Source: Candidatus Methanofastidiosum methylothiophilum (GTDB taxonomy: Archaea; Methanobacteriota_B; Thermococci; Methanofastidiosales; Methanofastidiosaceae). From it: a stretch of 10,716 nt of DNA. The notes beneath the pieces are model-generated. The model searched no databases. It was not told the DNA's origin and was given only the letters and a program-made list of their open reading frames with translations. Made by a program: the position numbers and the translations under genes. Location: NCBI GenBank assembly GCA_001587715.1, contig LNGC01000051.1:1-10716 (forward strand). The letters run 5' to 3'. Shown here piece by piece: positions 1 through 10,716 of this stretch. Positions within the stretch are counted from its first letter, which is position 1; each line of letters begins with the position of its first letter.

Positions 1-2
1 GG

Positions 3-815
3 TATGATTTAGTATTCCAACATAACAGGGAGTTTCTATTAAGTCCTAGGGGTCATGGTAAAACAATGTTTTTACCAAGGTCGGTTCTAGAACATGAAAC
101 CCTTTTTAATAAAAATTTTAATTCCCTAATTATTGGTAAAACATATAAACAAGCCAATAAAACTTTAAAAGTAGTTAAGACAGATTTAGAAGAAAATAAA
201 CTTATTTTAAGAGACTTTGGGGAAGAGCTAGATGAGTATGATTCAGTTGGGAATCAACTTTGGTATAATATAGATACTACTGACCAAATTTTAAGGGATG
301 CAACTGTAGAAGCTAATGGATTATTAGGGGATATTACAGGGGGTCATTTTAACCTTATTATCCTTGATGATATTATAGATGATGCAAATTGTCTAACCCC
401 AGATAGTAGAAGAAAAGTAATGGAATGGGTACAGGGTACAATTATTCCAATGCTTAAACCGGGAGGGTATATTTCTGGTATAGGAACTAGAAAGCATTAT
501 GATGATGCATACCAAGAGATGATAGACAGCCCCGGATGGTATGTTATTCAACAAAAAGCTATTCTCAAAATGCCCAAAAGTTTTGAATATGTTTATAAAA
601 CCATAGGTGGGCAGCAAATAGCAGTAGGAATTAAAAATGTAGTAGGGGAGTATAAAGTATTATGGCCCGATGTATGGTCATTAGAATTATTATTATTAGA
701 AAAGAAAACAATGGGGAGTATCTTATTTAATAGGGAATACAATAACGATACTTCCCAGATGAAGGGTAAGATATTAAAAGACTTCTGGCTGAATAAGTAT
801 GTAATAATGAAATAA
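3..815 (+). CDS. terL: Large terminase subunit, N-terminal ATPase domain. It is 5'-partial: the reading frame is open back to the window edge.
   Basis: Frame 0 has no stop between nt 3 and the annotated ATG at 66. The upstream translation reads YDLVFQHNREFLLSPRGHGKTMF, i.e. a Walker A P-loop (RGHGKT) lying before the annotated Met, so the true start is upstream of the window. The Walker B-like motif is FNLIILDDIIDD. The C-terminal stretch LWPDVWSLELLLLEKKTMGSILFNREY resembles the terminase ATPase-to-nuclease linker. Its position just ahead of the portal fits. Confidence 0.8.
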   Translation, partial: YDLVFQHNREFLLSPRGHGKTMFLPRSVLEHETLFNKNFNSLIIGKTYKQANKTLKVVKTDLEENKLILRDFGEELDEYDSVGNQLWYNIDTTDQILRDATVEANGLLGDITGGHFNLIILDDIIDDANCLTPDSRRKVMEWVQGTIIPMLKPGGYISGIGTRKHYDDAYQEMIDSPGWYVIQQKAILKMPKSFEYVYKTIGGQQIAVGIKNVVGEYKVLWPDVWSLELLLLEKKTMGSILFNREYNNDTSQMKGKILKDFWLNKYVIMK

Positions 816-1366
816 ATGCTACAGAGGATATTAAACTGGCACCCCCACTAGATTCTATGACTATATACCAAGGATGGGATTTAGCAATAAGAGAAAAAGA
901 AACATCTGATTATGTAGTATGTACTACCATAGGGGTAACTCCTAAAAATAAGATATATGTACTGGATTGGTTTAGGGATAGGATGGCATTCCCAGACCAA
1001 GTAAAACAGGTGAGAGAATTATATGATGAATTTAGACCTGAAAGAATTGCAATAGAAACTAATGCATATCAGTTAGCATTAAAGCAACAGGTTCTAACTG
1101 AAAGAATATTACCTATAAAAGAGATAGAGAATATTAAGAATAAAGTACAGAGAATAATTTTAAGTTCAGTGAATTATGAAAATGGGTTAGTGTATCTCCC
1201 AATAGACCACCCTTATTATAATGCATTTATGGATGAATATAGGACATTTGATGATGGAACTCACGATGATATGTTAGATAGTTTAGACATGGCGATGAGG
1301 TTAATATTAGAACCAAAAGGAATACCATTTAAACGAGGTTTAAGGAGTAAGGTACATGCAAGATAA
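797..1366 (+). CDS. terL: Large terminase subunit, C-terminal RNaseH-like nuclease domain. It lies in the -1 frame relative to the ATPase fragment; the annotated ORF starts at ATG 857, but the frame is open from 797.
   Basis: The translation (MTIYQGWDLA...YVVCTTIGV...IYVLDWFRDR...RIAIETNAYQ...DDGTHDDMLDSLDMA) matches the terminase nuclease-domain pattern: an Asp early in strand 1, a central acidic residue in IAIE, and a C-terminal HDD..D. There is no SD upstream of ATG 857. This frame is open back to 797 and overlaps the end of the ATPase ORF. Confidence 0.75.
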   Translation, partial: VCNNEINATEDIKLAPPLDSMTIYQGWDLAIREKETSDYVVCTTIGVTPKNKIYVLDWFRDRMAFPDQVKQVRELYDEFRPERIAIETNAYQLALKQQVLTERILPIKEIENIKNKVQRIILSSVNYENGLVYLPIDHPYYNAFMDEYRTFDDGTHDDMLDSLDMAMRLILEPKGIPFKRGLRSKVHAR

Positions 1367-2798
1367 ACTACCATTAGGGAGGGTTATGCCAGTAATGAGC
1401 ATTAACCCAGAAGAAAAATTAATGCGAATGTTAAGAAGGTATGACCCCAATTTCCAGTTTTTCCAGTTGCTGCAAATGGTAGATTATCCAGTAGCTAGTG
1501 ATTATGAACTATTTTTACATTACTTTAGGGGAGGGGCAGGGCCATTTATAGACTTATTTTTATACTGTGATTTAGGGGCGGACTGGACATTAAACCCAGT
1601 AGGATTCGATAGTGAGGAAGATGGGGAAGAAGCTGTAAGGTTAGTAGAGGAAGATTATTTTAGTGATAAAAGGATGAACTTTAGAAGGACAATGAATGAG
1701 ATAGGGGCATATTGTGAAATCCTAGGGAGAACTTGTTATGTAGAAACATTTAATCTAGCAGAGGATTATTTCTATGATAAAAATATGAAAGTAACCGGAC
1801 TAGATGCAATAAACCCAATGGTACTAAATGAGGAAAGTATTAAAAAGGCATTAGCAGACACCACTGGAACAGTACCCTTTAAGCAGGAAGGAGTTACAAC
1901 AGATGGAAAATATGTAGCGATTCCATTTGAACAGGAAAGAGTTTTTTATTTTACTAAAAATATTGTGCCAAAATATAGTCCGGTAGGAAATTCAGAACTA
2001 CAAAGGTGTGTAACTGACCTTAGAACCCTAGCAAGATTCCCACACTATAGGATGAAGATAGGTAAAAAATATTCAGAACTATTTAGGGTAATTCAGATTA
2101 ACACGGAGAAACTAAAGGAAACTGGTATGGGGGAAACTATAACTGAAAGTACAGAAGAAGCCCAAAAATACTTAGATGAGACAGCAGAATTTTATAGAGA
2201 CCAAGAGGATAAAGGGGGAACTGTAGCTGTATTTGATTGGGAAACATTAATAGAAAGTTCATGGGCAGGTAAGGAAGTTAAGTTTAGTGAAATAGAAAGG
2301 GATACAGTGCAAAGTATAGGGTTAAAGTTGGGAGTTCCAATGGAACTTATGACCTATGCTGCTGATGCTATGAACAGGGCAACACTCTTAGGGTTACTGG
2401 ATACATTTGTATCTAAAAGGGAGAAGGGGACTAGGAAATGGTTATACACTCCCATAATACAAAATACAGCCAATAAGATTTTAAGAATAAATGATATACT
2501 GGATGGACATTTAGAAGTTAAGTATAATCCATTCTTATCTAAAAACTTAGTGGAAGTTGCAGATATACTAAGTAAGTTATACCCAACAGGGGCAATAACC
2601 AAACCAGAAATAAGAAAACCATTTGACTTTTTACCAAAAAGATTAGATTTAGGAGGGGAAGAATGGGAAGAAGCAGGAATGGACCCCAAGCCAAATCCTC
2701 AAGCAAAAATTAATCCAGTAGAATTAGCAGAAGAAGGGGAAGGAATTGCAGAAGTTGCTAAAGAAATGCTACAGAAAGGATTAATTAACTTATTATAG
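1356..2798 (+). CDS. Putative portal protein (480 aa)
   Basis: It directly follows terL with an 11-nt overlap. An AAGGAG SD lies 7 nt upstream of the ATG. Its size and its place in the canonical terL-portal-MuF-protease/scaffold-MCP order support the call. I did not recognise a diagnostic portal motif by eye. Confidence 0.55.
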   Translation: MQDKLPLGRVMPVMSINPEEKLMRMLRRYDPNFQFFQLLQMVDYPVASDYELFLHYFRGGAGPFIDLFLYCDLGADWTLNPVGFDSEEDGEEAVRLVEEDYFSDKRMNFRRTMNEIGAYCEILGRTCYVETFNLAEDYFYDKNMKVTGLDAINPMVLNEESIKKALADTTGTVPFKQEGVTTDGKYVAIPFEQERVFYFTKNIVPKYSPVGNSELQRCVTDLRTLARFPHYRMKIGKKYSELFRVIQINTEKLKETGMGETITESTEEAQKYLDETAEFYRDQEDKGGTVAVFDWETLIESSWAGKEVKFSEIERDTVQSIGLKLGVPMELMTYAADAMNRATLLGLLDTFVSKREKGTRKWLYTPIIQNTANKILRINDILDGHLEVKYNPFLSKNLVEVADILSKLYPTGAITKPEIRKPFDFLPKRLDLGGEEWEEAGMDPKPNPQAKINPVELAEEGEGIAEVAKEMLQKGLINLL

Positions 2799-2809
2799 AG
2801 GTATAGATA

Positions 2810-3880
2810 ATGGAGAAAGTTGCAGAAGCTACAAGGGAGAAAGTAGCAATAGATGAAGCTCTGTTATGTTACCTTATAGAAAAATCTGGAATAAAAAATT
2901 TAGATGAATTTGAATTATGGGTAAAGGGAGAAGTAGAAATTAAGCCCAAAGTAGAACATGCCCATATTAAAAAAAGTAAAAAAATAAAAGTTGAATTTAA
3001 ACCAAACCCAAACTTAGGAGAAGCAGGGGCAACCAAGGAAGAATTAAACTATAGGCAAGTTCTTATTTTATACTTAAAACCAGTTTGGGATTCAGCTAAG
3101 AAAATAATTATAGAGAGCGATTTATCACTACAAGAAAAACATGTAGAGATAAATAAATTAATTGAAAATTTTATATCCAATGTTCAAAAGGTTGCACAAT
3201 CTACAGTAACAAGTAGGTATAATGCAGGGTATACCCGGATGGAAGGGTATGTAAAGAAAGCTAAATACAAAATACCTTCACGACCCAAAGAACAACCTAG
3301 ACTTGATACTTTACTCCTACAGCAAACTATGAATATAGAGGATATTGGATTAACATTAAGGGGTAAGTTAAGACAAATCCTAAATATAAAAGCAGTCCAA
3401 GATTTTTATGAACAAGGAAGAGAAGGAAAACCAGACCCGGAAAAAATAAAAAAAGCAGTTCCAAAACCTAATTGGACTGTATGTATGAAAAGAGTAGCTA
3501 AAGAACACCCTGAATGGTCAGAGGCAGAAGTTAAAAAATGGTGTGAAGTCTTTGCTTATGAGGAAGAAATTGATAAGGCAGTAGATGACAGTAAGAGAAG
3601 GGTTGATGCCATAGGAATGTTTGGATTTCTGGAATCAGATAAAGCAGGATACCTTCAAGCTGCATTATTATTATCAGTAGGAATTACAGAACTTACAATG
3701 AAAATTCCATGGGTAACTATGGGAGATGCTAATGTATGTTCAGACTGTTTAGCTAGGGAAGCAGAGGGGCCATATTATCCAGAAGATTACCCGGAAGACC
3801 AACACTATGGTGAAAGATGTGTACCCGGTGAACCTGTATTTTTCAAAGGAGTATTAGAGGATGTGTGGGATTATGCATAA
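2810..3880 (+). CDS. Putative minor head / head-morphogenesis protein (Mu F / SPP1 gp7-like)
   Basis: It sits downstream of the portal. The C-terminal region QHYGERCVPGEPV resembles the conserved H-x-N-C-R-C-x-x-x-P signature of Phage_Mu_F domains, and a nearby CSDC cysteine pair is present. SD is AGAGG. Confidence 0.45.
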   Translation: MEKVAEATREKVAIDEALLCYLIEKSGIKNLDEFELWVKGEVEIKPKVEHAHIKKSKKIKVEFKPNPNLGEAGATKEELNYRQVLILYLKPVWDSAKKIIIESDLSLQEKHVEINKLIENFISNVQKVAQSTVTSRYNAGYTRMEGYVKKAKYKIPSRPKEQPRLDTLLLQQTMNIEDIGLTLRGKLRQILNIKAVQDFYEQGREGKPDPEKIKKAVPKPNWTVCMKRVAKEHPEWSEAEVKKWCEVFAYEEEIDKAVDDSKRRVDAIGMFGFLESDKAGYLQAALLLSVGITELTMKIPWVTMGDANVCSDCLAREAEGPYYPEDYPEDQHYGERCVPGEPVFFKGVLEDVWDYA

Positions 3881-4014: not shown

Positions 4015-5073
4015 ATGCCATTTGAAGGGGATAAATATATTCATTTGCCAAACCCAGAACATCCTGAATCTGATTTTAGAAGATTGGGAAATGGTAATTT
4101 AAATATAGTTGCTACTCAAAACTTTGGAAGAGGTATTAAGGCAAGAATAGGATTGCTTAAAGGTACCAACGATTCAACAGCGGTAGTAGTTTATTTATTC
4201 GATAAAACCAAGTGGGGAATGGCAACTGCTAAAAAATGGATAAAAAACCATACTCAAAAAGGAAGTGGATATATGGAAGTTAAATCAATAAGTGGAAGTT
4301 TTAATTTTGTAATGCCATTTAAAAAAGCTCAAGAAGAGGAAGATGGGTATTACTATCTAGAATATGCACTAAGTACAACTGACCCGGACTTAATAAATGA
4401 CCAAATTACAGAAGAATGCATAGATGACATGATAAAACAAGCCCCCAAGCTAAACAGTTTTATGAGCCATAATTATGACAAAGTAATAGGGCCAATAATC
4501 AAAAGCTGGAAAGAAGTAACCGAAAAAGCAACGGAGATGTGGATAAAAGTTAGGGTAAAACCAAGTATGCGGAAAGAGATAGAAGAAGATATTAATACAG
4601 GGGTAAGGTATGGGGGAAGTATTGGTGGCGAGTTTATAAAAGGATATCAGGAAGGTGAGATAAGAAAAATAGAAAAAGTGCAACTAATGGAGGGGAGTTT
4701 AACGACAATGCCTATGAACTGGGCAACTAGTGGTTCAGCGAGGCAGGGGATAGCTAAAGGGTGTCCAAATAATATTTGCACCCAAATTTTAAAATCAGCA
4801 GATATTAAATTTTCAGGAAAAGATATAGGAGTTGATAGTATTCCTAACATGGAATTGATTAAAGAAATTAATAAAATAAGTTTAGAATTAAAAGCTGTAA
4901 CAATGTTGCCCGGATGGCCAGAAGAATTAGATAGTGTAATAGACACAGATAAAGCTCAACTGATGGATACCCTAGGAACACTAGTAAACAATTTAATAAG
5001 ACTAGTGGAAGATATAATAAAAGAAGAAGGAATATCCATAGAAGAGTTGCAAGCAGTGGCAGAAGCAGCTTAA
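4015..5073 (+). CDS. Prohead maturation protease (HK97 gp4 / peptidase S78-U35 family) with N- and C-terminal extensions
   Basis: Strong SD (GGGAGGG). The catalytic-His region NSFMSHNYDKVIGPI matches the l-f-n-H-d...iG motif. The catalytic-Ser region YGGSIGGEF matches S-I-G-F. About 85 aa lie before the protease core and about 110 aa after it; the C-terminal part is helix-prone and delta-domain or scaffold-like. It is located upstream of the scaffold and MCP. Confidence 0.7.
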   Translation: MPFEGDKYIHLPNPEHPESDFRRLGNGNLNIVATQNFGRGIKARIGLLKGTNDSTAVVVYLFDKTKWGMATAKKWIKNHTQKGSGYMEVKSISGSFNFVMPFKKAQEEEDGYYYLEYALSTTDPDLINDQITEECIDDMIKQAPKLNSFMSHNYDKVIGPIIKSWKEVTEKATEMWIKVRVKPSMRKEIEEDINTGVRYGGSIGGEFIKGYQEGEIRKIEKVQLMEGSLTTMPMNWATSGSARQGIAKGCPNNICTQILKSADIKFSGKDIGVDSIPNMELIKEINKISLELKAVTMLPGWPEELDSVIDTDKAQLMDTLGTLVNNLIRLVEDIIKEEGISIEELQAVAEAA

Positions 5074-5113: not shown

Positions 5114-5830
5114 ATGAAACAAAAAGGTAAAGAAAATGATACTCAGGGAGAAGATGAAAAAATGGGGTTACTAAAGAAAACCTTAAGTACCCTAAAAGAG
5201 GTTAAAGATGCATTAACTGGAGAGGAAGGGAACCCCGGTGAAGAAGGGAATCCTGGAGAGGAAGGGAACCCCGGTGAAGAAGGGAATCCTGGAGAGGAAG
5301 GAAACCTAGAAAACCCTGCAGAAGAAGATGGAGAAGGGGAAGAAGGGGAAGGTGAAACATTGAAACCAAAAGATGTAAAAAGTATCCTTAAAAGGATAGA
5401 TGCCCTAGAACAGAAAGACTATAATCAGGAAAAAATAATCAAAAAACAGGGAGAAACAATTAAAAAACAAAACAAAACAATTGAAACCCTACAATCAGAT
5501 AAAACAGAAAAAATCCACAAAGGATTAGTCAAAGAAGCCCTTACATGTTCCAAAAAACTCAATGATACAACTGTTACCGATGAAAAATCCTTAGAAAAAG
5601 CTGTAAGGAAAGAACTAGATATAGACAAAGAAAAAGAAGTTACCGATGCAGACATTAACACCTATGTAAAAGGACTAAAGATAGCAATGAAAAGGATACC
5701 CGATGGGTATGTACCAATAATAACAGATGAAACAGTCCAGAAAGAACAGGATAAAACCAAACAAAAAATCAAAAAAATGAGAGAAAATATGAGTAAACAT
5801 GGGGTAGTTGGGGCAGAGGAATCTGAATAA
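5114..5830 (+). CDS. Putative scaffolding protein (238 aa, highly charged, with an (EEGNPG)5 repeat)
   Basis: SD is TAGGAGG. The composition is extremely K/E-rich and coiled-coil-prone (KEVKDALTGEEG..., IIKKQGETIKKQNKTIETLQ). The gene lies between the protease and the capsid gene, which is typical scaffold position and composition. Confidence 0.6.
   Translation: MKQKGKENDTQGEDEKMGLLKKTLSTLKEVKDALTGEEGNPGEEGNPGEEGNPGEEGNPGEEGNLENPAEEDGEGEEGEGETLKPKDVKSILKRIDALEQKDYNQEKIIKKQGETIKKQNKTIETLQSDKTEKIHKGLVKEALTCSKKLNDTTVTDEKSLEKAVRKELDIDKEKEVTDADINTYVKGLKIAMKRIPDGYVPIITDETVQKEQDKTKQKIKKMRENMSKHGVVGAEESE
5221..5310 (+). repeat. In-frame tandem repeat. A 36-nt unit (gaggaagggaaccccggtgaagaagggaatcctgga) occurs twice perfectly, followed by a degenerate third copy. 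It encodes EEGNPG five times.
   Basis: Direct reading: 5221-5256 and 5257-5292 are identical; 5293-5310 diverges (gaggaaggaaacctagaa). Confidence 0.9.
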
Positions 5831-5859
5831 ACTTCCCCCCATTAAAAATTTTATAGGAG

Positions 5860-6312
5860 ATGCAAAACATGGGATACCAACCAGAATATGGACATAGGTT
5901 AATAAGGGAAAGGTTTGTAGAAACCGGTGAAACAATACCTTACTACCGCATTATAAAACAGGGTACAACTGAAACCAAAGTTAAATTAGGAACTTTAGGT
6001 TGCAGACCCCTAGCTATTTCCATTCCCTCAGAGGAAGCATTCATGCCAAATGGTTCCGGTGGGATAGTACCTAGAACCGGATATGTAGCGGGTGAAATAC
6101 CAGAAGCACAAATGACAGGAATAGCATTTGTAGAACTAGCAGAAACTGTAAGCCAAGGAGAATTATGTGGGTCAAGTGCCAACGGAAGAGGAATAGCAGT
6201 TGAATTATCCCTAACAGGTATGAACACTGAAATAGGAACTGTAGCAGGCACATTCCTAGAAGGTGGAGATGCAGGGGATATAGTAAGAGTAGACATGGAC
6301 AGGAGGCAGTAA
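5860..6312 (+). CDS. Hypothetical Gly/Ala-rich beta protein. Possibly a head decoration or capsid accessory protein, judged by synteny only.
   Basis: SD TAGGAGAT lies 8 nt upstream. The gene sits between the scaffold and the major capsid gene, as lambda D does relative to E. Its stop overlaps the MCP start (TAAGATG), suggesting coupled expression. No motif recognised. Confidence 0.3.
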   Translation: MQNMGYQPEYGHRLIRERFVETGETIPYYRIIKQGTTETKVKLGTLGCRPLAISIPSEEAFMPNGSGGIVPRTGYVAGEIPEAQMTGIAFVELAETVSQGELCGSSANGRGIAVELSLTGMNTEIGTVAGTFLEGGDAGDIVRVDMDRRQ

Positions 6313-6313
6313 G

Positions 6314-7207
6314 ATGGGATTACTAACTGATGCAGCAATTAACTATTATGAGTTAATAATGCTGGAAGAAATAGAACCAAACCTAGTAGGAACTCAAGTT
6401 ATAGCAAAAGCCCCCGATATACCAGTAGGTGCTCAGCAAGTTACTAGGGATGAAATTGCAAAACTGAAAGGTAAAGCCAAAAAGGGTAAAAAAGGTCAGC
6501 CCATTCCTAGAGAAACTGGAGATGTATCTAGGAAGACTGTATTAATCCCTGAAATAGCTCACGGTTTCACCCTACACCGGAAGGACATCCAAGCTTCCCA
6601 AAGGGCAGGAACACCCCTACCAGATGCAGCTGCAAGGCAGTCCTCAAGATTAGTTCTAGAAGCCATAGAAGATATGGTATTTAATGGGATACCAGAACTA
6701 AAAATTAAGGGAATCTATGCTGATGCAGCGGATACCTATGCTGTGGAAGATGGTTATGAGTGGAATAGTTCAAATGCCCAACCATTTAATGACATGATTG
6801 CAGCTATGGGGCAACTAGCAAGCTCTGGGAAGTATATAGGAAAAAAATTAATACTTTCTCCTTTAGCTTATTGGTCAGCACATAAAACTAACACCCTAGG
6901 AGTTAGCTATATGGACCAGATTGCCAGTTTATTCCCTAACGGAAAAGCTGACATATTCCAAGCTCCTTCTACTGCTAACGGTGGAGAAACTATTATCCCT
7001 GTTGATGGTGGGGTTCTCTGCGACTTTGGGAATGGTATAGCTGAAAGGTATGTAGAAGAAGAGGTGAACCTGCAACAGGACTTTGGAATGGATGAAAATA
7101 ACTTATTCCCATTCAATGTTCTAACCTACCAGTCTCAGGATATACACCGGACAGAAGCATTCCTTAAGCTAGATAACTTGATTGATGTAGACCTATTAAC
7201 CCCATAA
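6314..7207 (+). CDS. Putative major capsid protein (HK97 fold, 297 aa)
   Basis: It is the last gene of the terL-portal-protease-scaffold series and is coupled to the upstream ORF. Its size is typical for compact HK97-like MCPs. A T-rich terminator-like tract follows it, as is common after highly expressed capsid genes. I did not verify the fold. Confidence 0.55.
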   Translation: MGLLTDAAINYYELIMLEEIEPNLVGTQVIAKAPDIPVGAQQVTRDEIAKLKGKAKKGKKGQPIPRETGDVSRKTVLIPEIAHGFTLHRKDIQASQRAGTPLPDAAARQSSRLVLEAIEDMVFNGIPELKIKGIYADAADTYAVEDGYEWNSSNAQPFNDMIAAMGQLASSGKYIGKKLILSPLAYWSAHKTNTLGVSYMDQIASLFPNGKADIFQAPSTANGGETIIPVDGGVLCDFGNGIAERYVEEEVNLQQDFGMDENNLFPFNVLTYQSQDIHRTEAFLKLDNLIDVDLLTP

Positions 7208-7220
7208 AGGGATTAATAGG

Positions 7221-7242
7221 TATTTTTTTATTTTTTTTTATT
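7221..7242 (+). terminator. Oligo-T tract (T7-A-T9-A-TT) immediately downstream of the capsid gene. It may be a terminator or attenuator, of archaeal oligo-T type or a weak intrinsic one.
   Basis: Read directly as tatttttttattttttttttatt. Only a weak 3-bp stem (ccc-ataaa-ggg) precedes it, so a canonical bacterial hairpin is not evident. Confidence 0.3.
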
Positions 7243-7254
7243 AAATAAAGGGAG

Positions 7255-7746
7255 ATGAAGCCAATGCCAGAAGAAGAAGGAAAAAAGGTAGAAGCTACTG
7301 GAACTATTTTGGAGGAAATAAATAGTGAAGAAGAAGCAGATAAAGCTATAGAAATTGCACAACAAAAAAAGGCAGAGCTAAAAATTAAACAGCATGAAAA
7401 AGAGCTAAGGAAAATTAAGTGCAAATGTGGAAAATCTTTAAAAGTAAATCCTAAAGATTTCATGGGAAGAGATGGAACCAGAGCTAAGAGATATACCTGC
7501 GAAAAATGCCAGTTACAAACTAAAGTCCAAGTAACATATAATAAGGAACTAGGAGAACTAGAACTTAAAATTAATAGGTTACAAAAAGCATGGGTAGAAA
7601 TGCACCCAAGCAAATTATCCGATGACCAGATAAAAGAATGGGTTAAGGATGAAGTGGAAAACCTAAAAAGAGGAAGGAGTAAGTTTCCAAGGAAAGAAGA
7701 GCAGATATTACTTAGGGCAATAGATTTAGCGATAAATCCAAAATAA
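7255..7746 (+). CDS. Zinc-ribbon plus coiled-coil protein, 163 aa by the track. The functional start is more likely Met4 at 7264, which has better SD spacing.
   Basis: It carries C-x-C-x23-C-x2-C (KCKCGKS...YTCEKCQ). Charged helical regions flank the ribbon. AGGGAG lies 9 nt upstream of ATG 7264. Oligo-T tracts bracket both ends of the gene. Confidence 0.6.
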   Translation: MKPMPEEEGKKVEATGTILEEINSEEEADKAIEIAQQKKAELKIKQHEKELRKIKCKCGKSLKVNPKDFMGRDGTRAKRYTCEKCQLQTKVQVTYNKELGELELKINRLQKAWVEMHPSKLSDDQIKEWVKDEVENLKRGRSKFPRKEEQILLRAIDLAINPK

Positions 7747-7759
7747 ACCCTATTATCTG

Positions 7760-7773
7760 TTTTTAATTTTTTT
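7760..7773 (+). terminator. Second oligo-T tract (T5-AA-T7) between the zinc-ribbon gene and the next gene
   Basis: Read directly as tgtttttaattttttta. The strong SD GAGGTGGG of the next gene follows immediately. Confidence 0.25.
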
Positions 7774-7789
7774 AGAGGTGGGATAGGAT

Positions 7790-8197
7790 ATGACTAATGC
7801 AGTATATAGTAAAGCTAAAGAGAAAATGTTACAAGCAGGAATTGACTTAGTAACTGGAGATGTTAAGGCAATACTTGTAGATACCCTTAATTATTATGTA
7901 GATTTAGAAAACCATGATTTCCTAGACGATATTCCAGTTGTTGCAATAACTGCAACTAGTCCAGTATTAACTAATAAATCCATAGCAGGGGGGGTATTTG
8001 ATGCAGATAATATAACCTTTACATTAGTATCTGGGAATGAAAGTGAAGCTATAATATTATATATAGATACTGGAACTGAATCAGAAAGCCCACTTATAGC
8101 ATATATTGACACTGCAACAGGACTTCCAATAACCCCTAACGGTGGAGATATAGTAATAGAATGGGATAACGGAGCTAATAAAATTTTCAGATTATAA
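7790..8197 (+). CDS. Small beta-rich conserved virion-protein candidate (135 aa), encoded just upstream of the fibre gene. It may be a fibre-attachment or adaptor protein.
   Basis: SD GAGGTGGG at -8. The C-terminal motif TPNGGDIVIEWDNGANKIFRL and the central FDADNITF...ILYIDTG pattern look like a conserved phage structural family seen upstream of fibre genes. That recognition comes from memory and is not verified. Confidence 0.5.
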   Translation: MTNAVYSKAKEKMLQAGIDLVTGDVKAILVDTLNYYVDLENHDFLDDIPVVAITATSPVLTNKSIAGGVFDADNITFTLVSGNESEAIILYIDTGTESESPLIAYIDTATGLPITPNGGDIVIEWDNGANKIFRL

Positions 8198-8215
8198 TAT
8201 CATCAGGATAAGACT

Positions 8216-10576
8216 ATGACAATAACTGGTAGTGGAACCTCTGCTGACCCTTATATAATTTATACCCTAGATGATTTGGCATTAATAGGAACTAGTCCTT
8301 ATACTTTGAATAAATATTTTAAGTTAAATAATGATATTGATGCCAGTCCTACTCAAGACCCTAGTTATAATGGAGGGACAGGTTGGAATCCAATAGGGAA
8401 TAGCACCACTAAATTTAGTGGAAATTTTAATGGGAATAATAAAACCATATCAGGATTATTTATTAATAAACCTACAACCGACAATATAGGTTTATTTGGA
8501 TACACCACTACAGGATTTAGTATTTATAATCTTATTTTGGAAGTAGATATTACTGGACAGAATAATGTAGGGGGATTACTAGGGTATTATGATGAGGTAA
8601 GTAATAGTGATGGGGATAGGGTATGGGGAATAACAGTACATGGAGAAGTAACTGGGAATAACCAAGTAGGAGGAATTGTTGGGGTTAAAGCCCACTATGG
8701 GTATATTGATGATTGTTATTCTGATGCAGTGGTTTCCGGTGCAAACCAAGTAGGAGGGATATTTGGACAACTTTTAAACCTTGGTTATAGGGGAATTGTT
8801 AAGTATTGTGATTTTGATGGAGTAGTTAATATTTCCGGGAGTAGAGGGGGATTAATAGGGGGGGAAGCTAATCAAGATGTTACTTATTGTAATGCTTATG
8901 GAGAGTTAAATGCCTCAGCAACTAGTGATTATATAGGAGGAATAATAGGATATGATATTAGCGAAGATATTAGTTATTGCAATTGCTATTCTAATATAAC
9001 TGGTAGAAATTATGTTGGAGGAATAGTAGGAACTAAAACAAAATACAATGCAATTAGTTTCTGTAGGGCTTACGGAGTAATTACTGGTAATGAGAGGGTA
9101 GGGGGTATTGCAGGACACCATGGAACTAGGGGTTATGGAAGTACATTACAAGATTGTTATTTTAGGGGAGAAATAAATGCAACTGGAAATTATGTAGGAG
9201 GCATTGCAGGGAGTTGTAGTTGGTTAATTCAAAGATGTTTAGTATCAAGTGATACAGTAATTAACAGCCCTAATTCAAGTTATGTGGGGGGAATTGTTGG
9301 ATTAGGTAATCATGGCCCGATTAATAATTGTATAAACCTTATAGATATTAATGGGATAGATTATGTGGGGGGCATTGCAGGGAAGAAGGAATTATATGAT
9401 AGTTATGTGGAAGTTCAAAACTATGGAAACATTACCGGAAGGGATTATGTAGGGGGAATTACTGGATACTTTTCTAATTATGATTATGCCCAAGACCACA
9501 AACAATGTATAAACTATGGAAACATTACTGGAAGGAATTATGTAGGGGGAATAGCAGGTAGATGTGACTGTAGGAATTGGGAATGTTATAATAGGGGAAA
9601 AGTATCTGGGCAAAATAATGTAGGGGGAATATTTGGGCATTTATATTCAAAATATATAAGTAGAGCATATAATACAGGGCAGGTTATAGGAACAGGAACA
9701 GGAATAGGGGGATTAGTTGGAAGCATTAGTGGGAGTGGGGGGGATACAAATAGTTTCTGGGATGTTGAAACTAGTGGAATAGCTATAAGTGCAAGGGGTA
9801 CAGGAAAGACTACAGCAGAAATGAAAACCCAATCAACATATACAGGATGGGATTTCACGACCCCAGTATGGTTAATTAACCCTATTTTCAATGATGGTTA
9901 TCCTTATTTAAATATTCCTAAATTTATTAGAGTTTTATCCCCAAATGGGATTACTTCTACAGAAGGATTAGGGATTCCTCTAATCAGAATAACAGTCATA
10001 CATATTATGGCAAATGGAGTTCCTTCTACTCTTCTATTTGGAATACCTAAACTTTCTGCCATACTCAGAATACAGGGCATAGATGGAACTATACAGCTAG
10101 GAATTTTTAAAACCTTAATGGAAGTTGCACTCAAAGGGAAAGGAATTAAACTATTAGATTTTGGTACTTTAAAAACATTGATGGAAGTAAGGGTAGTAGA
10201 TGGGGGAATCCCTAGTAGTATTGAACTAGGAATCCCAATGGCAATGTATCAGATAAGCCCAGAGGGAATAGACAATAGTATCACTATGGGAACTATTACA
10301 TTAATCTGGGATGAATTTATTAGACCTAATGGATTAGATTCATTTATTAGTTTTGGGGAATTAGTAACTTATATTAGATATTGGAAGGAAAATATTGAGT
10401 TTACATTAAAAGGAAGTAAAACTAATTTTGACCAAGTAGGGGGGGATATTAGATTTTTAATAGAAACCCCTAGTACAGAATTTGAACTTAAAAAACCTAC
10501 TACCCGGTTTGAATTAATACAACCAAGGGCTGGAACTAAGTTAAAATCTCAGACAATTTTTGAATTAAGAAAATAG
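8216..10576 (+). CDS. GLUG-repeat fibre or adhesin-like protein (786 aa), a candidate receptor-binding protein
   Basis: The N-terminal module GSGTSADPYIIYTLDDLALIG...YFKLNNDIDAS...WNPIGN...FSGNFNGNNKTISGLFINKPTTDNIGLFG is the typical head of GLUG-domain surface proteins. It carries 14 repeats of about 29 aa built on N-x-V-G-G-(I/L)-x-G (residues about 116-510), the closing motif TYTGWDFTTPVWLI...GYPYL, then about 7 repeats of about 22 aa (NG-I-x-S-x4-G-I-P-x6-I) and three FEL mini-repeats at the end. No HExxH or other protease motif was found. Confidence 0.85.
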   Translation: MTITGSGTSADPYIIYTLDDLALIGTSPYTLNKYFKLNNDIDASPTQDPSYNGGTGWNPIGNSTTKFSGNFNGNNKTISGLFINKPTTDNIGLFGYTTTGFSIYNLILEVDITGQNNVGGLLGYYDEVSNSDGDRVWGITVHGEVTGNNQVGGIVGVKAHYGYIDDCYSDAVVSGANQVGGIFGQLLNLGYRGIVKYCDFDGVVNISGSRGGLIGGEANQDVTYCNAYGELNASATSDYIGGIIGYDISEDISYCNCYSNITGRNYVGGIVGTKTKYNAISFCRAYGVITGNERVGGIAGHHGTRGYGSTLQDCYFRGEINATGNYVGGIAGSCSWLIQRCLVSSDTVINSPNSSYVGGIVGLGNHGPINNCINLIDINGIDYVGGIAGKKELYDSYVEVQNYGNITGRDYVGGITGYFSNYDYAQDHKQCINYGNITGRNYVGGIAGRCDCRNWECYNRGKVSGQNNVGGIFGHLYSKYISRAYNTGQVIGTGTGIGGLVGSISGSGGDTNSFWDVETSGIAISARGTGKTTAEMKTQSTYTGWDFTTPVWLINPIFNDGYPYLNIPKFIRVLSPNGITSTEGLGIPLIRITVIHIMANGVPSTLLFGIPKLSAILRIQGIDGTIQLGIFKTLMEVALKGKGIKLLDFGTLKTLMEVRVVDGGIPSSIELGIPMAMYQISPEGIDNSITMGTITLIWDEFIRPNGLDSFISFGELVTYIRYWKENIEFTLKGSKTNFDQVGGDIRFLIETPSTEFELKKPTTRFELIQPRAGTKLKSQTIFELRK
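8561..9745 (+). repeat. Array of 14 GLUG-type coding repeats, with period about 81-99 nt
   Basis: The VGG(I/L) cores fall at residues 118, 151, 179, 211, 240, 267, 295, 327, 357, 384, 412, 443, 469 and 497 of the 8216 ORF. Near-identical DNA copies exist, e.g. 9424-9461 versus 9524-9561 (ctatggaaacattac[c/t]ggaagg[g/a]attatgtagggggaat). Confidence 0.85.
9944..10396 (+). repeat. C-terminal array of about 7 coding repeats of about 22 aa (NGITSTEGLGIPLIRITVIHIMA, NGVPSTLLFGIPKLSAILRIQGI, DGTIQLGIFKTLMEV..., GGIPSSIELGIPMAMYQISPE, GIDNSITMGTITLIWDEFIRP, NGLDSFISFGELVTYIRYWKE)
   Basis: Read from the translation. The pair FKTLMEVALKGKGI / LKTLMEVRVVDGGI is also visible as similar DNA at about 10108-10150 and 10168-10210. 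Confidence 0.6.
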
Positions 10577-10588
10577 GAGGGAAGGAGC

Positions 10589-10716
10589 ATGGATACAGTA
10601 AATGAAAATTCAACTAGGGATATTAAAATTAGTTTTACAAGCCACTTAGGAAATCCAGTAACCCCGGACAGATGTTTATATAAACTAACTGATTTAGAAA
10701 GTCTTACAGAGATAGT
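10589..10716 (+). CDS. Start of the next + strand gene (MDTVNENSTRDIKISFTSHLGNPVTPDRCLYKLTDLESLTEI...). It is truncated by the window end and its function is unknown.
   Basis: Strong SD (AGGAGGGAAGGAG) lies 5-8 nt upstream of the ATG. It keeps the same strand and spacing as the rest of the operon. Confidence 0.5.
   Translation, partial: MDTVNENSTRDIKISFTSHLGNPVTPDRCLYKLTDLESLTEI

What the first reader, a model, noticed from the sequence alone, without database searches (positions are those of the whole stretch)
7255..8197. No tail tube, tape-measure or baseplate genes between capsid and fibre
After the major capsid gene only two small genes (163 aa and 135 aa) intervene before the 786-aa fibre. 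The usual block of connector proteins, major tail protein, tail chaperones with a frameshift and a tape-measure protein is absent. Possible explanations are:
- a short-tailed, podovirus-like particle;
- a head-fibre arrangement;
- a GTA-like or otherwise reduced particle;
- the tail module lying downstream of the fibre, which is not the usual order.
Basis: inference. Interest (0 to 1): 0.55.

Follow-up and report, generated by a model that had tools for sequence, protein, structure and literature searches.

The report
Archaeal virus fibre cassette before tail genes
The tail genes are not missing: the window is a short contig of a long-tailed archaeal virus that stops just before them. The one unusual feature is a swappable side-fibre gene set placed between the capsid gene and the neck genes.

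Summary
Only a 163-aa and a 135-aa ORF lie between the major capsid gene (6314-7207) and the 786-aa ORF (8216-10576).

The "reduced tail" reading is wrong. The window is a complete 10,716-bp contig from a Candidatus Methanofastidiosum MAG, and it ends 128 nt into the next gene. In five collinear relatives, one of them 92% identical in DNA, the fibre gene is followed by:
- four or five small connector-position genes;
- a 243-aa protein homologous to a structural protein of the archaeal siphoviruses psiM2 and psiM100;
- a chaperone pair with a -1 frameshift site;
- a tape-measure gene of about 1,120 aa, then tail-tip genes.

Neither small protein is an adaptor or a tail tube.
- The 163-aa protein is a zinc-ribbon protein that always follows the capsid gene in this virus group.
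- The 135-aa protein is a homologue of mycobacteriophage Bxb1 gp31, the "tail wing arm" (PDB 9d93).
- The 135-aa, 786-aa and following 111-aa genes form an accessory cassette. A collinear relative lacks all three.

The 786-aa protein is a GLUG beta-helix with C-terminal repeats. The same repeats occur in the proteins encoded next to the arm gene in mycobacteriophages. It is the only diverged gene between otherwise 99-100% identical genomes. It is most likely an arm-mounted host-binding fibre. Where it attaches on the virion is unresolved.

The parts
1..1366 (+). Large terminase subunit. It is cut by the left contig end (it begins at about residue 39) and is interrupted by a 1-nt frameshift near 806, which splits it into ORFs 66-815 and 857-1366.
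   Evidence: phrog_38 E 1e-39 and 7e-31; Pfam Terminase_6C. tblastn against the intact 494-aa TerL of L009 changes frame at 806.
1356..2798 (+). Portal protein candidate (480 aa).
   Evidence: It sits directly after TerL. It is 79-81% identical to its orthologues in L009 and L013. The L009 orthologue is 46% identical to the L017 protein that carries a weak PF04860 Phage_portal hit. There is no direct family hit in the window.
4015..5073 (+). Prohead serine protease (352 aa).
   Evidence: Pfam Peptidase_S78 E 7e-6, above its cut-off; phrog_80.
5114..5830 (+). Scaffold-like protein (238 aa) with a GEEGNP x5 tandem repeat.
   Evidence: Its position, and its fusion to the protease in L017 and L019. 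The 18-nt tandem repeat lies at 5217-5306.
6314..7207 (+). Major capsid protein, HK97 fold / encapsulin-like (297 aa).
   Evidence: Pfam Linocin_M18 E 2e-14; phrog_264 E 5e-16. It is 100% identical in L003.
7255..7746 (+). Core zinc-ribbon protein (163 aa; probably 160 aa from the ATG at 7264). It has an N-terminal charged helix, a CxC...CxxC zinc ribbon and a C-terminal helical part. Its function is unknown. It is not part of the fibre cassette.
   Evidence: It has 23 family representatives among 1.8 billion proteins, with C56, C58, C82 and C85 invariant. It lies directly after the capsid gene in L017/L018 and L019 as well, and L017/L018 have no fibre. Family members give only generic zinc-ribbon hits. 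There are no PDB or phage matches.
7790..8197 (+). Fibre adaptor (135 aa), a homologue of mycobacteriophage Bxb1 gp31, the 'tail wing arm'.
   Evidence: PDB 9d93 chain Ra, E 4e-15. phrog_644 E 4e-42. 59% identity to Wildcat gp46 and matches in 444 phage records. 37% identity over 124 aa to the N-terminally extended Bxb1 gp31 reading frame. More than 4,188 clusters, nearly all of 135 aa.
8216..9916 (+). The 786-aa fibre protein, residues 1-567: a right-handed beta-helix built of GLUG-type repeats (...NYVGGI.G...).
   Evidence: AlphaFold2 pLDDT is mostly above 90. The best Foldseek match is 3n6z, a putative IgA1 protease GLUG domain, E 4e-5. There are thousands of PF07581-bearing homologues, and the DNA repeat families D1, D2 and D4 lie here. 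There is no signal peptide or transmembrane segment.
9917..10576 (+). The 786-aa fibre protein, residues 568-786: a virus-specific C-terminal domain. It has 6-7 repeats of about 20 aa of the form 'G-I-x-S-x-x-x-[FLM]-G', then a conserved 'W..FI.pNG[LI][DE]S.I.FG' repeat, a helix, and short 'T.F.L' strands. It is the proposed oligomerisation and docking end.
   Evidence: It is not foldable as a monomer (pLDDT below 50). phrog_13352 'minor tail protein' E 1e-6 at residues 662-717. blastp E 1e-5 to the N-terminal repeats of Wildcat gp45, with the same repeats in Kumao gp32 and Marvin gp88 and a match to that N-terminal region in Corndog gp64. The terminal repeat is conserved in L013, L023 and L026. 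There is no match in the phage collection by tblastn.
8750..10550 (+). Sharply bounded hypervariable tract inside the fibre gene. It is 65-80% identical in DNA to L003, against 99-100% in all flanking DNA.
   Evidence: Sliding-window identity and per-gene identity.
10589..10716 (+). First 42 codons of a 111-aa Ig-like beta-sandwich protein. It is the last gene of the cassette and is cut by the contig end.
   Evidence: Sequence read. The full-length gene is present in L003, L009, L013, L023 and L026 and absent from L017. The family has 8 clusters. The AlphaFold2 model is a 7-strand sandwich, pLDDT 79. Fold matches are generic Ig/macroglobulin domains and small phage proteins, including weak matches to BppU-N and to N-termini of tail fibres.

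Best explanation
The window is a truncated contig of a long-tailed, siphovirus-type virus, most likely of an archaeon. It covers the head module and stops just before the neck and tail genes.

Between the capsid gene and the neck genes lie two separate things:
1. A core zinc-ribbon gene (163 aa) of unknown role. It follows the capsid gene in every relative examined.
2. An accessory, exchangeable fibre cassette: the 135-aa adaptor (homologue of the Bxb1 gp31 'tail wing arm'), the 786-aa fibre, and a 111-aa Ig-like protein.

Proposed mechanism, all inferred:
- The 786-aa protein oligomerises and docks through its C-terminal GIxS...FG repeat domain onto the 135-aa arm.
- The arm is held on the virion by another protein. 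The 111-aa Ig-like protein is the candidate, because no gp30-like wing base exists here.
- The N-terminal GLUG beta-helix projects outward and binds a host surface structure.
- Recombination confined to the fibre gene changes host or receptor specificity between otherwise identical viruses.

Shown:
- the gene identities;
- the tail module downstream in relatives;
- the cassette's presence or absence and its variable content at one fixed site;
- homology of the arm to a structurally located virion protein;
- the hypervariability of the fibre gene.

Inferred:
- the arm-fibre contact;
- which end of the fibre is proximal;
- the attachment site on the particle. I favour the tail or neck axis, as in Bxb1, over the capsid shell;
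- host binding.
For: Tail module downstream:
- L003 is 91.8% identical to window 5272-10716 in DNA and has an identical capsid protein. After its fibre gene come genes of 111, 133, 127, 143, 155, 243 and 149+50 aa, then a tape-measure protein of more than 1,026 aa (PF10145 at 42.3 bits against a cut-off of 33.2; phrog_58 E 9e-17).
- The same order holds in L009, L013/L015, L023 and L026.
- The chaperone ORF pair overlaps in the -1 frame, with CCCAAAA or CCCAAAG heptamers.
- The 243-aa protein is 36% identical (E 7e-27) to ORF18 of psiM100, annotated 'putative structural protein', and 32% identical to ORF18 'structural protein' of psiM2. In psiM2 that gene sits in the tail-tube position, ahead of the tape-measure gene.

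Cassette:
- L017/L018 (capsid protein 59% identical) run capsid, zinc-ribbon gene, then directly the homologues of the 133-aa, 125-aa, 143-aa and 148-aa genes, the tail-tube candidate and the tape-measure gene. There is no arm, fibre or 111-aa gene.
- L023 adds a 203-aa gene. L026 has 116-, 336- and 210-aa genes and a 1,405-aa GLUG protein at the same site.

Arm:
- PDB 9d93 'Tail wing arm, gp31', E 4e-15.
- PMC12646305 states that gp31 and the gp33 'brush' bind the gp30 wing base and no other tail protein.

Partner motif:
- The fibre's C-terminal repeats match the N-terminal repeats of the proteins encoded beside the arm gene in Wildcat, Kumao, Marvin and Corndog.
- The terminal repeat is conserved even where the fibres are only 35% identical.

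Host-interaction role:
- The fibre is the only diverged gene: 76% identical at the protein level against 96-100% for its neighbours (window vs L003), and 36% against 53-84% (window vs L013).
- The divergence has sharp boundaries at about 8750 and 10550.
- The protein has no signal peptide or membrane anchor.

Precedent for arm-linked fibre genes encoded out of order: cluster S phages such as Marvin carry them in the right arm of the genome.
Against: - No part of the tail module is in the window itself. The argument rests on relatives, although one is nearly identical.
- The connector assignments are positional, with only weak PHROG hits (E 0.035-0.057).
- No gp30-like base was found in the archaeal loci, so the only experimentally known docking partner of the arm family is absent.
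- The first ~180 residues of the fibre are the conserved part between window and L003. In many phage fibres the conserved end is the anchor, which argues for N-terminal rather than C-terminal docking.
- F116-like podophages have the arm gene, but the simple repeat-pattern scan found no repeat-bearing neighbour, so the motif is not a universal partner signature.
- The C-terminal domain could not be modelled.
- The archaeal host rests on metagenomic binning and on similarity to psiM2 and psiM100, not on a host link.
Confidence: 0.72

Rival explanations
1. Head or neck fibre. The arm and the GLUG fibre are mounted on the capsid shell or at the collar just below the head, as with phi29 head fibres or T4 whiskers. 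On this reading the gene position between the capsid and adaptor genes reflects the physical position.
For: - The cassette sits between the capsid and adaptor-position genes in all five relatives that have it.
- In F116-like podophages the arm gene directly follows the SU10_adaptor-family head-tail adaptor gene and lies a few genes after the capsid gene.
- On a Sulfolobales MAG contig the arm gene follows a YonB-family gene.
- No gp30-like tail-tip base is present.
- The cassette includes a small Ig-like protein of a kind often used for decoration.
Against: - The only family member with a known location, Bxb1 gp31, is on the tail tip.
- In mycobacteriophages the gene lies among the minor tail genes.
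- Gene position is not a reliable guide for this cassette, as Marvin shows.
- There is no similarity to any known head fibre or decoration family.
Confidence: 0.3
2. Reduced-tail particle. The virus is podovirus-like, GTA-like or otherwise lacks a long tail, and the 786-aa protein is its only tail appendage.
For: The only support is the lack of tail genes within the 10.7-kb window.
Against: - The window ends 128 nt into the next gene.
- The 92%-identical relative and four others carry connector-position genes, a tube candidate, frameshifting chaperones, a tape-measure protein of about 1,120 aa and tail-tip genes directly downstream.
Confidence: 0.03
3. The 786-aa GLUG protein is not a virion component. 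It would be a moron: a cell-type surface adhesin carried by a provirus and expressed for the host's benefit, or for superinfection exclusion.
For: - The first ~570 residues are homologous to thousands of cellular GLUG surface proteins.
- The fold matches a Bacteroides GLUG protein.
- Morons often sit at module boundaries.
Against: - There is no signal peptide, transmembrane segment or sorting domain, unlike the cellular homologues with T9SS or PGF-type domains.
- The gene is co-oriented and tightly packed with late structural genes.
- It is always paired with a homologue of a proven virion protein.
- It carries a C-terminal domain shared with mycobacteriophage minor tail proteins.
Confidence: 0.07

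Closest known systems
Mycobacteriophage Bxb1 'tail wing' (gp30 base, gp31 arm, gp33 brush; PDB 9d93; Freeman et al., Cell 2025, as cited in PMC12646305)
   Same: - The 135-aa protein is a clear sequence homologue of gp31 (E 4e-15 to the solved chain; 37% identity over 124 aa).
- The arm gene is followed closely by the gene of a distal appendage protein.
- The module is accessory. The Bxb1 relative Hami1 lacks it, and here L017 lacks it.
   Different: - There is no gp30-like base (FN3 domain plus D-Ala-D-Ala carboxypeptidase).
- The distal partner is a 786-aa GLUG beta-helix, not a glycine-rich 'brush'.
- The genes lie between the capsid and neck genes, not at the end of the minor tail genes.
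- The host is probably an archaeon.
- The location on the particle is unknown.
Arm-adjacent minor tail proteins of mycobacteriophages Wildcat (gp45), Kumao (gp32) and Marvin (gp88), and Corndog gp64
   Same: - They are encoded immediately next to the arm gene.
- They carry tandem repeats of about 20 aa, of the form 'GI.SAEAFG' (Corndog gp64 matches that N-terminal region by BLAST).
- In Marvin the cassette is also displaced from the canonical tail block.
   Different: - In the mycobacteriophages the repeats are at the N-terminus. Here they are in the C-terminal domain, which implies the opposite polarity.
- The rest of the proteins are unrelated.
- Those phages also have a gp30-like base.
Methanobacterium phage psiM2 and Methanothermobacter phage psiM100 (Leisingerviridae; archaeal siphoviruses)
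   Same: - The tail-tube candidate of the window's relatives is 32-36% identical to ORF18 of these phages, which the records annotate as a structural protein.
- The overall order terminase, portal, protease, capsid, small connector genes, tube, chaperones, tape-measure is the same.
   Different: - psiM2 has no gene cassette between the capsid and connector genes.
- The capsid protein has no detectable match in the phage collection.
- psiM2 has no arm homologue.
GLUG-motif beta-helix surface proteins (Pfam PF07581; for example BACOVA_03286, PDB 3n6z; the IgA1 protease family)
   Same: Residues 1-567 have the same repeat and the same beta-helix fold.
   Different: - The viral protein lacks a signal peptide and a cell-anchoring domain.
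- It ends instead in a virus-type repeat domain.
- It has no protease domain.

Membership tests
Bxb1 gp31 'tail wing arm' family (phrog_644) | Sequence homology to gp31 or phrog_644 over the whole length | tested here: met
   PDB 9d93_Ra E 4e-15; phrog_644 E 4e-42 covering residues 1-135; blastp E 3e-24 to the N-terminally extended Bxb1 gp31 reading frame.
Bxb1 gp31 'tail wing arm' family (phrog_644) | Conserved size of about 135 aa | tested here: met
   The window protein is 135 aa. Nearly all of the best 120 of 4,188 clusters are 134-136 aa.
Bxb1-type tail wing (complete system) | A gp30-like wing base (FN3 domain plus D-Ala-D-Ala carboxypeptidase) encoded nearby, on which the arm docks | tested here: not met
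   tblastn with four base homologues (Bxb1 gp30, Wildcat gp44, Corndog gp62, Kumao gp31), alongside other wing-region proteins, found nothing in the window, L003, L009, L013, L015, L017 or L023. All four other mycobacteriophages examined have a base homologue. Only part of each archaeal genome was available.
Bxb1-type tail wing (complete system) | Physical location on the tail tip | not testable with these tools
   Needs cryo-EM or complex modelling. Only one homologue has been located experimentally.
Long-tailed (siphovirus-type) tail module | Tape-measure protein gene | tested here: met
   It is not in the window. In the relatives L003, L009, L015, L023 and L026 the protein is 899-1,120 aa. 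For L003, PF10145 scores 42.3 against a cut-off of 33.2 and phrog_58 gives E 9e-17.
Long-tailed (siphovirus-type) tail module | Pair of chaperone ORFs upstream of the tape-measure gene, linked by a programmed -1 frameshift | tested here: met
   The -1 frame is open for 70-85 nt across the end of the first ORF, with CCCAAAA (L003) and CCCAAAG (L009) heptamers. Frameshifting itself is not shown.
Long-tailed (siphovirus-type) tail module | Tail tube protein, with no sheath | tested here: inconclusive
   The 243-aa protein matches psiM100 ORF18 at 36% identity and psiM2 ORF18 at 32%. The records annotate these as structural proteins, and in psiM2 the gene is in the tube position. There is no Pfam or PDB hit. 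No sheath-sized gene lies between the connector-position genes and the chaperones.
   There are no such hits in Pfam, PHROGs or PDB.
GLUG-motif beta-helix proteins (PF07581) | GLUG repeats forming a beta-helix | tested here: met
   The Pfam hit is below its cut-off (16.2 against 20.5 bits). However, most of the best homologues carry PF07581, the AlphaFold2 beta-helix has pLDDT mostly above 90, and Foldseek matches 3n6z at E 4e-5.
phi29-type head fibre or capsid decoration proteins | Homology to a known head-fibre or decoration family | tested here: not met
   No Pfam, PHROG or PDB match of that kind was found for the 135-, 786- or 111-aa proteins. Only the gene position resembles that arrangement.

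The most novel reading that the evidence does not exclude
The 135-aa arm family could be a universal, length-invariant plug-in socket used by tailed viruses of both Bacteria and Archaea to mount interchangeable accessory fibres. It has more than 4,000 clusters, is about 55-60% identical across hosts from Mycobacterium to Methanofastidiosum, and has no Pfam entry.

In this archaeal virus group the socket would work without the only known base (gp30). It would sit at the head-neck junction. It would hold a cell-derived GLUG adhesin by its C-terminus, the reverse of usual fibre polarity, through a conserved GIxS...FG repeat that is the socket's recognition motif.
Probability: 0.2. Interest if true: 0.6.

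Novelty: new variant of a known kind. Interest (0 to 1): 0.35.

Why it matters
As stated, the finding is mostly an effect of the contig ending. This is an ordinary long-tailed virus, and that alone is of little interest.

Three things remain useful:
- It gives a gene map for an uncultured virus group linked to Methanofastidiosa and Thermoplasmatota, for which almost nothing is described.
- It shows that the recently defined Bxb1 'wing arm' protein belongs to a very large, tightly conserved family. That family reaches archaeal viruses and can operate without the known wing base.
- It identifies the likely host-range determinant, a GLUG beta-helix fibre exchanged by recombination at a fixed site between the head and neck genes.

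If the arm-repeat docking idea holds, it would give a simple rule for recognising accessory fibres and their adaptors in metagenomic viruses.

Tried and rejected
- Megablast of the whole window against the phage collection found no match.
- An exact look-up of the 786-aa protein in the assembly index found nothing on record. The capsid protein worked instead.
- PDB sequence searches gave nothing meaningful for the 786-aa protein, the 163-aa protein, or three tail-region proteins of the relative L003: the 243-aa tube candidate and the 133- and 143-aa connector-position proteins.
- tblastn against phages found no match for the fibre C-terminal domain, the 163-aa protein, the 111-aa protein or the capsid protein.
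- The Bxb1 structure paper (PMC12124961, doi 10.1016/j.cell.2025.03.027) is not held. The roles of gp30, gp31 and gp33 were taken from PMC12646305.
- Bxb1 gp30, gp32 and gp33 show no similarity to the 163-aa or 786-aa proteins.
- Stepping along the IMG/VR contig with a DNA pattern returned only a 1-kb locus. A protein query from L009 was used instead.
- The context of the second GLUG protein of the same MAG (AMQ22_00079) is not on record.
- Fold searches of the 111-aa model gave only generic Ig-like and macroglobulin-like matches.
- A diversity-generating retroelement was considered for the hypervariable tract and rejected. The divergence is 20-35% over about 1.8 kb, and the window holds no template-like repeat outside the gene.
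- A tailspike-enzyme reading of the beta-helix was rejected as unsupported. Foldseek matches to HK620, P22 and CBA120 tailspikes have E above 0.05 and TM-scores of about 0.2.
Full report
**1. Observation**

The + strand of the window carries a tightly packed, co-oriented late-gene block:
- Large terminase at 1-1366. It is cut by the contig end and has a 1-nt frameshift near 806 (phrog_38).
- A 480-aa portal candidate at 1356-2798.
- A 356-aa protein at 2810-3880.
- A prohead protease at 4015-5073 (Peptidase_S78).
- A scaffold-like protein at 5114-5830, with a GEEGNP repeat.
- A 150-aa protein at 5860-6312.
- An HK97-fold major capsid protein at 6314-7207 (Linocin_M18 E 2e-14; phrog_264 E 5e-16).
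- A 163-aa ORF at 7255-7746.
- A 135-aa ORF at 7790-8197.
- A 786-aa ORF at 8216-10576.
- The first 42 codons of another ORF at 10589-10716.

No tail-tube, chaperone, tape-measure or baseplate family matches anything in the window.

**2. Where the window comes from**

The 786-aa and 135-aa proteins are KYC51673.1 and KYC51672.1 (locus tags AMQ22_01234 and AMQ22_01233). They belong to a metagenome-assembled genome named Candidatus Methanofastidiosum methylothiophilum, and their contig is 10,716 bp long. The window is that whole contig, so whatever lies beyond the fibre was simply never assembled with it.

**3. The tail module is downstream**

The capsid protein is encoded, residue for residue, on other public contigs. 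L003 belongs to a 25-kb Logan contig and is 91.8% identical in DNA to window 5272-10716. It continues past the fibre gene with genes of 111, 133, 127, 143, 155, 243, 149 and 50 aa, and then a protein of more than 1,026 aa.

- That last protein is a tape-measure protein. PF10145 scores 42.3 bits against a cut-off of 33.2, and phrog_58 gives E 9e-17.
- The 149- and 50-aa ORFs are arranged like the G/GT chaperone pair. The -1 frame is open for 70-85 nt across the end of the first ORF and contains CCCAAAA (L003) or CCCAAAG (L009).
- The 243-aa protein is 36% identical (E 7e-27) to ORF18 of Methanothermobacter phage psiM100 ('putative structural protein') and 32% identical to ORF18 of Methanobacterium phage psiM2 ('structural protein'). 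In psiM2 that gene lies after four small genes that follow the capsid gene, and before the tape-measure gene. This is the tail-tube position.
- The 133- and 143-aa proteins give only weak adaptor and Neck1 hits (E 0.057 and 0.035), so their roles are assigned by position.

The same order is found in four more relatives:
- L009 (fibre 66% identical);
- L013/L015, from an IMG/VR contig of 57 kb;
- L023;
- L026, from a 71.8-kb contig of a Thermoplasmatota MAG.

After the tape-measure gene, L015 carries seven more probable tail-tip genes. These include two Dit-position paralogues and a protein with a weak Prophage_tail match. Glycosyl- and methyltransferase genes follow.

The podovirus-like and reduced-particle readings are therefore refuted for this virus group.

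**4. The two small genes are not one unit**

*The 163-aa protein.* It has no match in Pfam, PHROGs, PDB or the phage collection.
- An exhaustive HMMER search of 1.8 billion representatives found 23 relatives. All but one are 147-205 aa long, and four cysteines are invariant (C56, C58, C82, C85). This is a zinc ribbon flanked by charged helices.
- Individual members hit only generic zinc-ribbon families.
- In every context recovered the gene follows the Linocin-like capsid gene directly.

*The collinear relative without a fibre.* In L017/L018 (capsid protein 59% identical) the zinc-ribbon gene is followed at once by the homologues of the 133-aa, 125-aa, 143-aa and 148-aa genes, the tail-tube candidate and the tape-measure gene. 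There is no 135-aa gene, no fibre and no 111-aa gene.

So the zinc-ribbon gene is a core gene of this group. The 135-, 786- and 111-aa genes are an accessory insert at a fixed site.

*Variable content.* The insert differs between relatives:
- L023 has an extra 203-aa gene.
- L026 has 116-, 336- and 210-aa genes and a 1,405-aa GLUG protein.
- The arm homologue and the 111-aa homologue are present in every copy of the cassette examined.

**5. The 135-aa protein**

It matches phrog_644 over its whole length (E 4e-42). It also matches one solved structure: chain Ra of PDB 9d93, 'Tail wing arm, gp31' (E 4e-15). This is mycobacteriophage Bxb1 gp31. The alignment extends into the reading frame upstream of the annotated Bxb1 start (37% identity over 124 aa).

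PMC12646305 summarises the cryo-EM work as follows:
- gp30, the wing base and a D-Ala-D-Ala carboxypeptidase, binds the tail spike.
- gp31 (arm) and gp33 (brush) bind gp30 but no other tail protein.
- A relative of Bxb1 lacks genes 30-35, and a gene 30 deletion mutant is viable.

The family is large and unusually uniform:
- 444 phage records hold a match. They include mycobacteriophages of several clusters, F116-like Pseudomonas podophages and marine phages.
- More than 4,188 clusters match in the large protein collection. Nearly all are 135 aa long and 55-61% identical to the archaeal copy. None has a Pfam domain.

The gene's position varies:
- In mycobacteriophages it lies at the end of the minor tail genes.
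- In Marvin (cluster S) it lies in the right arm of the genome with two displaced minor tail genes. The literature describes this location as atypical (PMC9872701).
- In F116-like podophages it follows the SU10_adaptor-family adaptor gene, a few genes after the capsid gene.

**6. The 786-aa protein**

*N-terminal part.* Residues 1-567 are homologous to thousands of GLUG-motif proteins, mostly cellular surface proteins.
- They are modelled with high confidence as a beta-helix (pLDDT mostly above 90).
- The best structural match is the GLUG domain of BACOVA_03286 (3n6z, E 4e-5). Tailspikes match only weakly.
- The protein has no signal peptide, transmembrane segment or sorting domain. This argues against a cell-surface moron.

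*C-terminal part.* Residues 568-786 are virus-specific and could not be modelled as a monomer (pLDDT below 50).
- They hold six or seven repeats of about 20 aa with the core G-I-x-S-x-x-x-[FLM]-G.
- These are followed by a conserved repeat (W..FI.pNG[LI][DE]S.I.FG), a helix and short T.F.L strands.
- This region hits phrog_13352 'minor tail protein' (E 1e-6) and the N-terminal repeats of Wildcat gp45 (E 1e-5).
- Kumao gp32 and Marvin gp88 carry the same repeats, and Corndog gp64 matches that N-terminal region by BLAST. Each of these genes lies directly beside the arm gene.
- The terminal repeat is kept in L013, L023 and L026, although those fibres are only about 35% identical overall.

I infer that this repeat domain is the oligomerising, arm-proximal end, and that the GLUG helix is distal.

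Two caveats apply:
- F116-like podophages have the arm, but the simple repeat-pattern scan found no such repeat protein beside it.
- Between the window and L003, the conserved part of the gene is the first ~180 codons. In many phage fibres that pattern marks the anchoring end.

**7. The fibre is the variable gene**

- Window versus L003, protein level: capsid 100%, 163-aa protein 98%, arm 99%, fibre 76%.
- Window versus L013, protein level: neighbours 53-84%, fibre 36%.
- In DNA, window and L003 are 99-100% identical from 5272 to about 8750 and 97% identical after 10550. Between those points, inside the fibre gene, identity falls to 65-80%.

Such a bounded mosaic tract is the usual signature of a host-specificity determinant exchanged by recombination. 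The repeated GLUG-unit DNA offers substrates for that exchange. A diversity-generating retroelement is unlikely, given the extent of divergence and the lack of a template repeat in the window.

**8. The 111-aa protein**

Only eight clusters exist. The model is a seven-stranded Ig-like sandwich (pLDDT 79). It gives generic matches to macroglobulin and Ig domains, and to many small uncharacterised phage proteins. Weaker matches include a BppU N-terminal domain and N-terminal parts of tail fibres.

This protein is always the last gene of the cassette, and L017 has the usual four connector-position genes without it. It is therefore an extra component. I propose it as the candidate base or accessory for the arm, but nothing here tests that.

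**9. Where the fibre sits on the particle**

This is unresolved.
- For a tail location: the only homologue with a known location is on the Bxb1 tail tip, and Marvin shows that arm cassettes can be encoded out of order.
- For a head-proximal location: the cassette lies between the capsid and adaptor-position genes, the arm gene follows the adaptor gene in podophages, and no gp30-like base was found.

I favour attachment on the tail or neck axis over the capsid shell, with modest confidence.

**10. Host**

An archaeal host is suggested by three things:
- two independent MAG assignments, to Methanofastidiosum and to Thermoplasmatota;
- the tail-tube candidate matching only psiM2 and psiM100 in the phage collection;
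- the absence of any bacterial-phage match for the capsid protein.

Binning is weak evidence, and no integration site or CRISPR link was examined.

**11. Verdict**

The virus is long-tailed.

What is less ordinary is the cassette. It combines a Bxb1-type wing arm without its base, a GLUG beta-helix fibre with mycobacteriophage-type repeats at the opposite end, and an Ig-like protein. It is inserted at a fixed site between the head and neck genes of an uncultured, probably archaeal virus group. This is a new variant of a known kind of accessory fibre system, and its interest is modest.

Noticed in passing
window 1-1366: The large terminase gene is cut by the left contig end (it starts at about residue 39). 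It also changes reading frame near 806, in an A-rich run, compared with the intact 494-aa orthologue in L009. This could be an assembly or sequencing error, or a pseudogene.
   Followed up: partly
window 5217-5306 (in ORF 5114-5830): An 18-nt tandem repeat encodes (GEEGNP)x5 in the scaffold-like protein and produces spurious collagen and tail-fibre hits. This gene is, after the fibre, the most divergent gene among the relatives (53-69% identity).
   Followed up: partly
window 7790-8197, and more than 4,188 protein clusters elsewhere: The arm family is remarkably uniform. Nearly all members are 134-136 aa long and about 55-61% identical to the archaeal copy, in viruses of Actinobacteria, Proteobacteria, cyanobacteria and archaeal MAGs. 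It has no Pfam family. Why such a small virion protein is so constrained across host domains is unexplained.
   Followed up: partly
window 7255-7746: A zinc-ribbon protein with four invariant cysteines is encoded directly after the capsid gene in every member of a small virus group (23 representatives). A zinc ribbon in the middle of a head-neck gene block is unusual, and its role is unknown.
   Followed up: partly
P0019 (AMQ22_00079, 952 aa; 54.8-kb contig of the same MAG): A second protein in the same MAG has the same architecture as the fibre: no signal peptide, a GLUG helix, C-terminal repeats of about 20 aa and a beta-strand tail. It is probably the fibre of another virus or provirus rather than a cell-surface protein. 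Its genomic context could not be retrieved.
   Followed up: partly
L017 4784-6580; L019 4677-6461: In more distant relatives the prohead protease and the scaffold are fused into one protein of about 595 aa. In the window they are separate genes.
   Followed up: no
window 7208-7254 and 7747-7789: Both intergenic spacers flanking the 163-aa gene contain long T runs. These may be oligo-T terminators of the archaeal type, following the highly expressed capsid gene. They were not tested.
   Followed up: no
L015 15016-18364: Directly after the tail-tip genes, the IMG/VR relative encodes two glycosyltransferases and two methyltransferase-like proteins, one of them fused to a CTP-dependent riboflavin kinase-like domain. 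They may modify the virion or the host surface.
   Followed up: no
L012 15524-15934 (Bxb1 gene 31): The family alignment extends about 30 codons upstream of the annotated Bxb1 gp31 start. The annotated and deposited 106-aa chain may therefore lack the true N-terminus.
   Followed up: no
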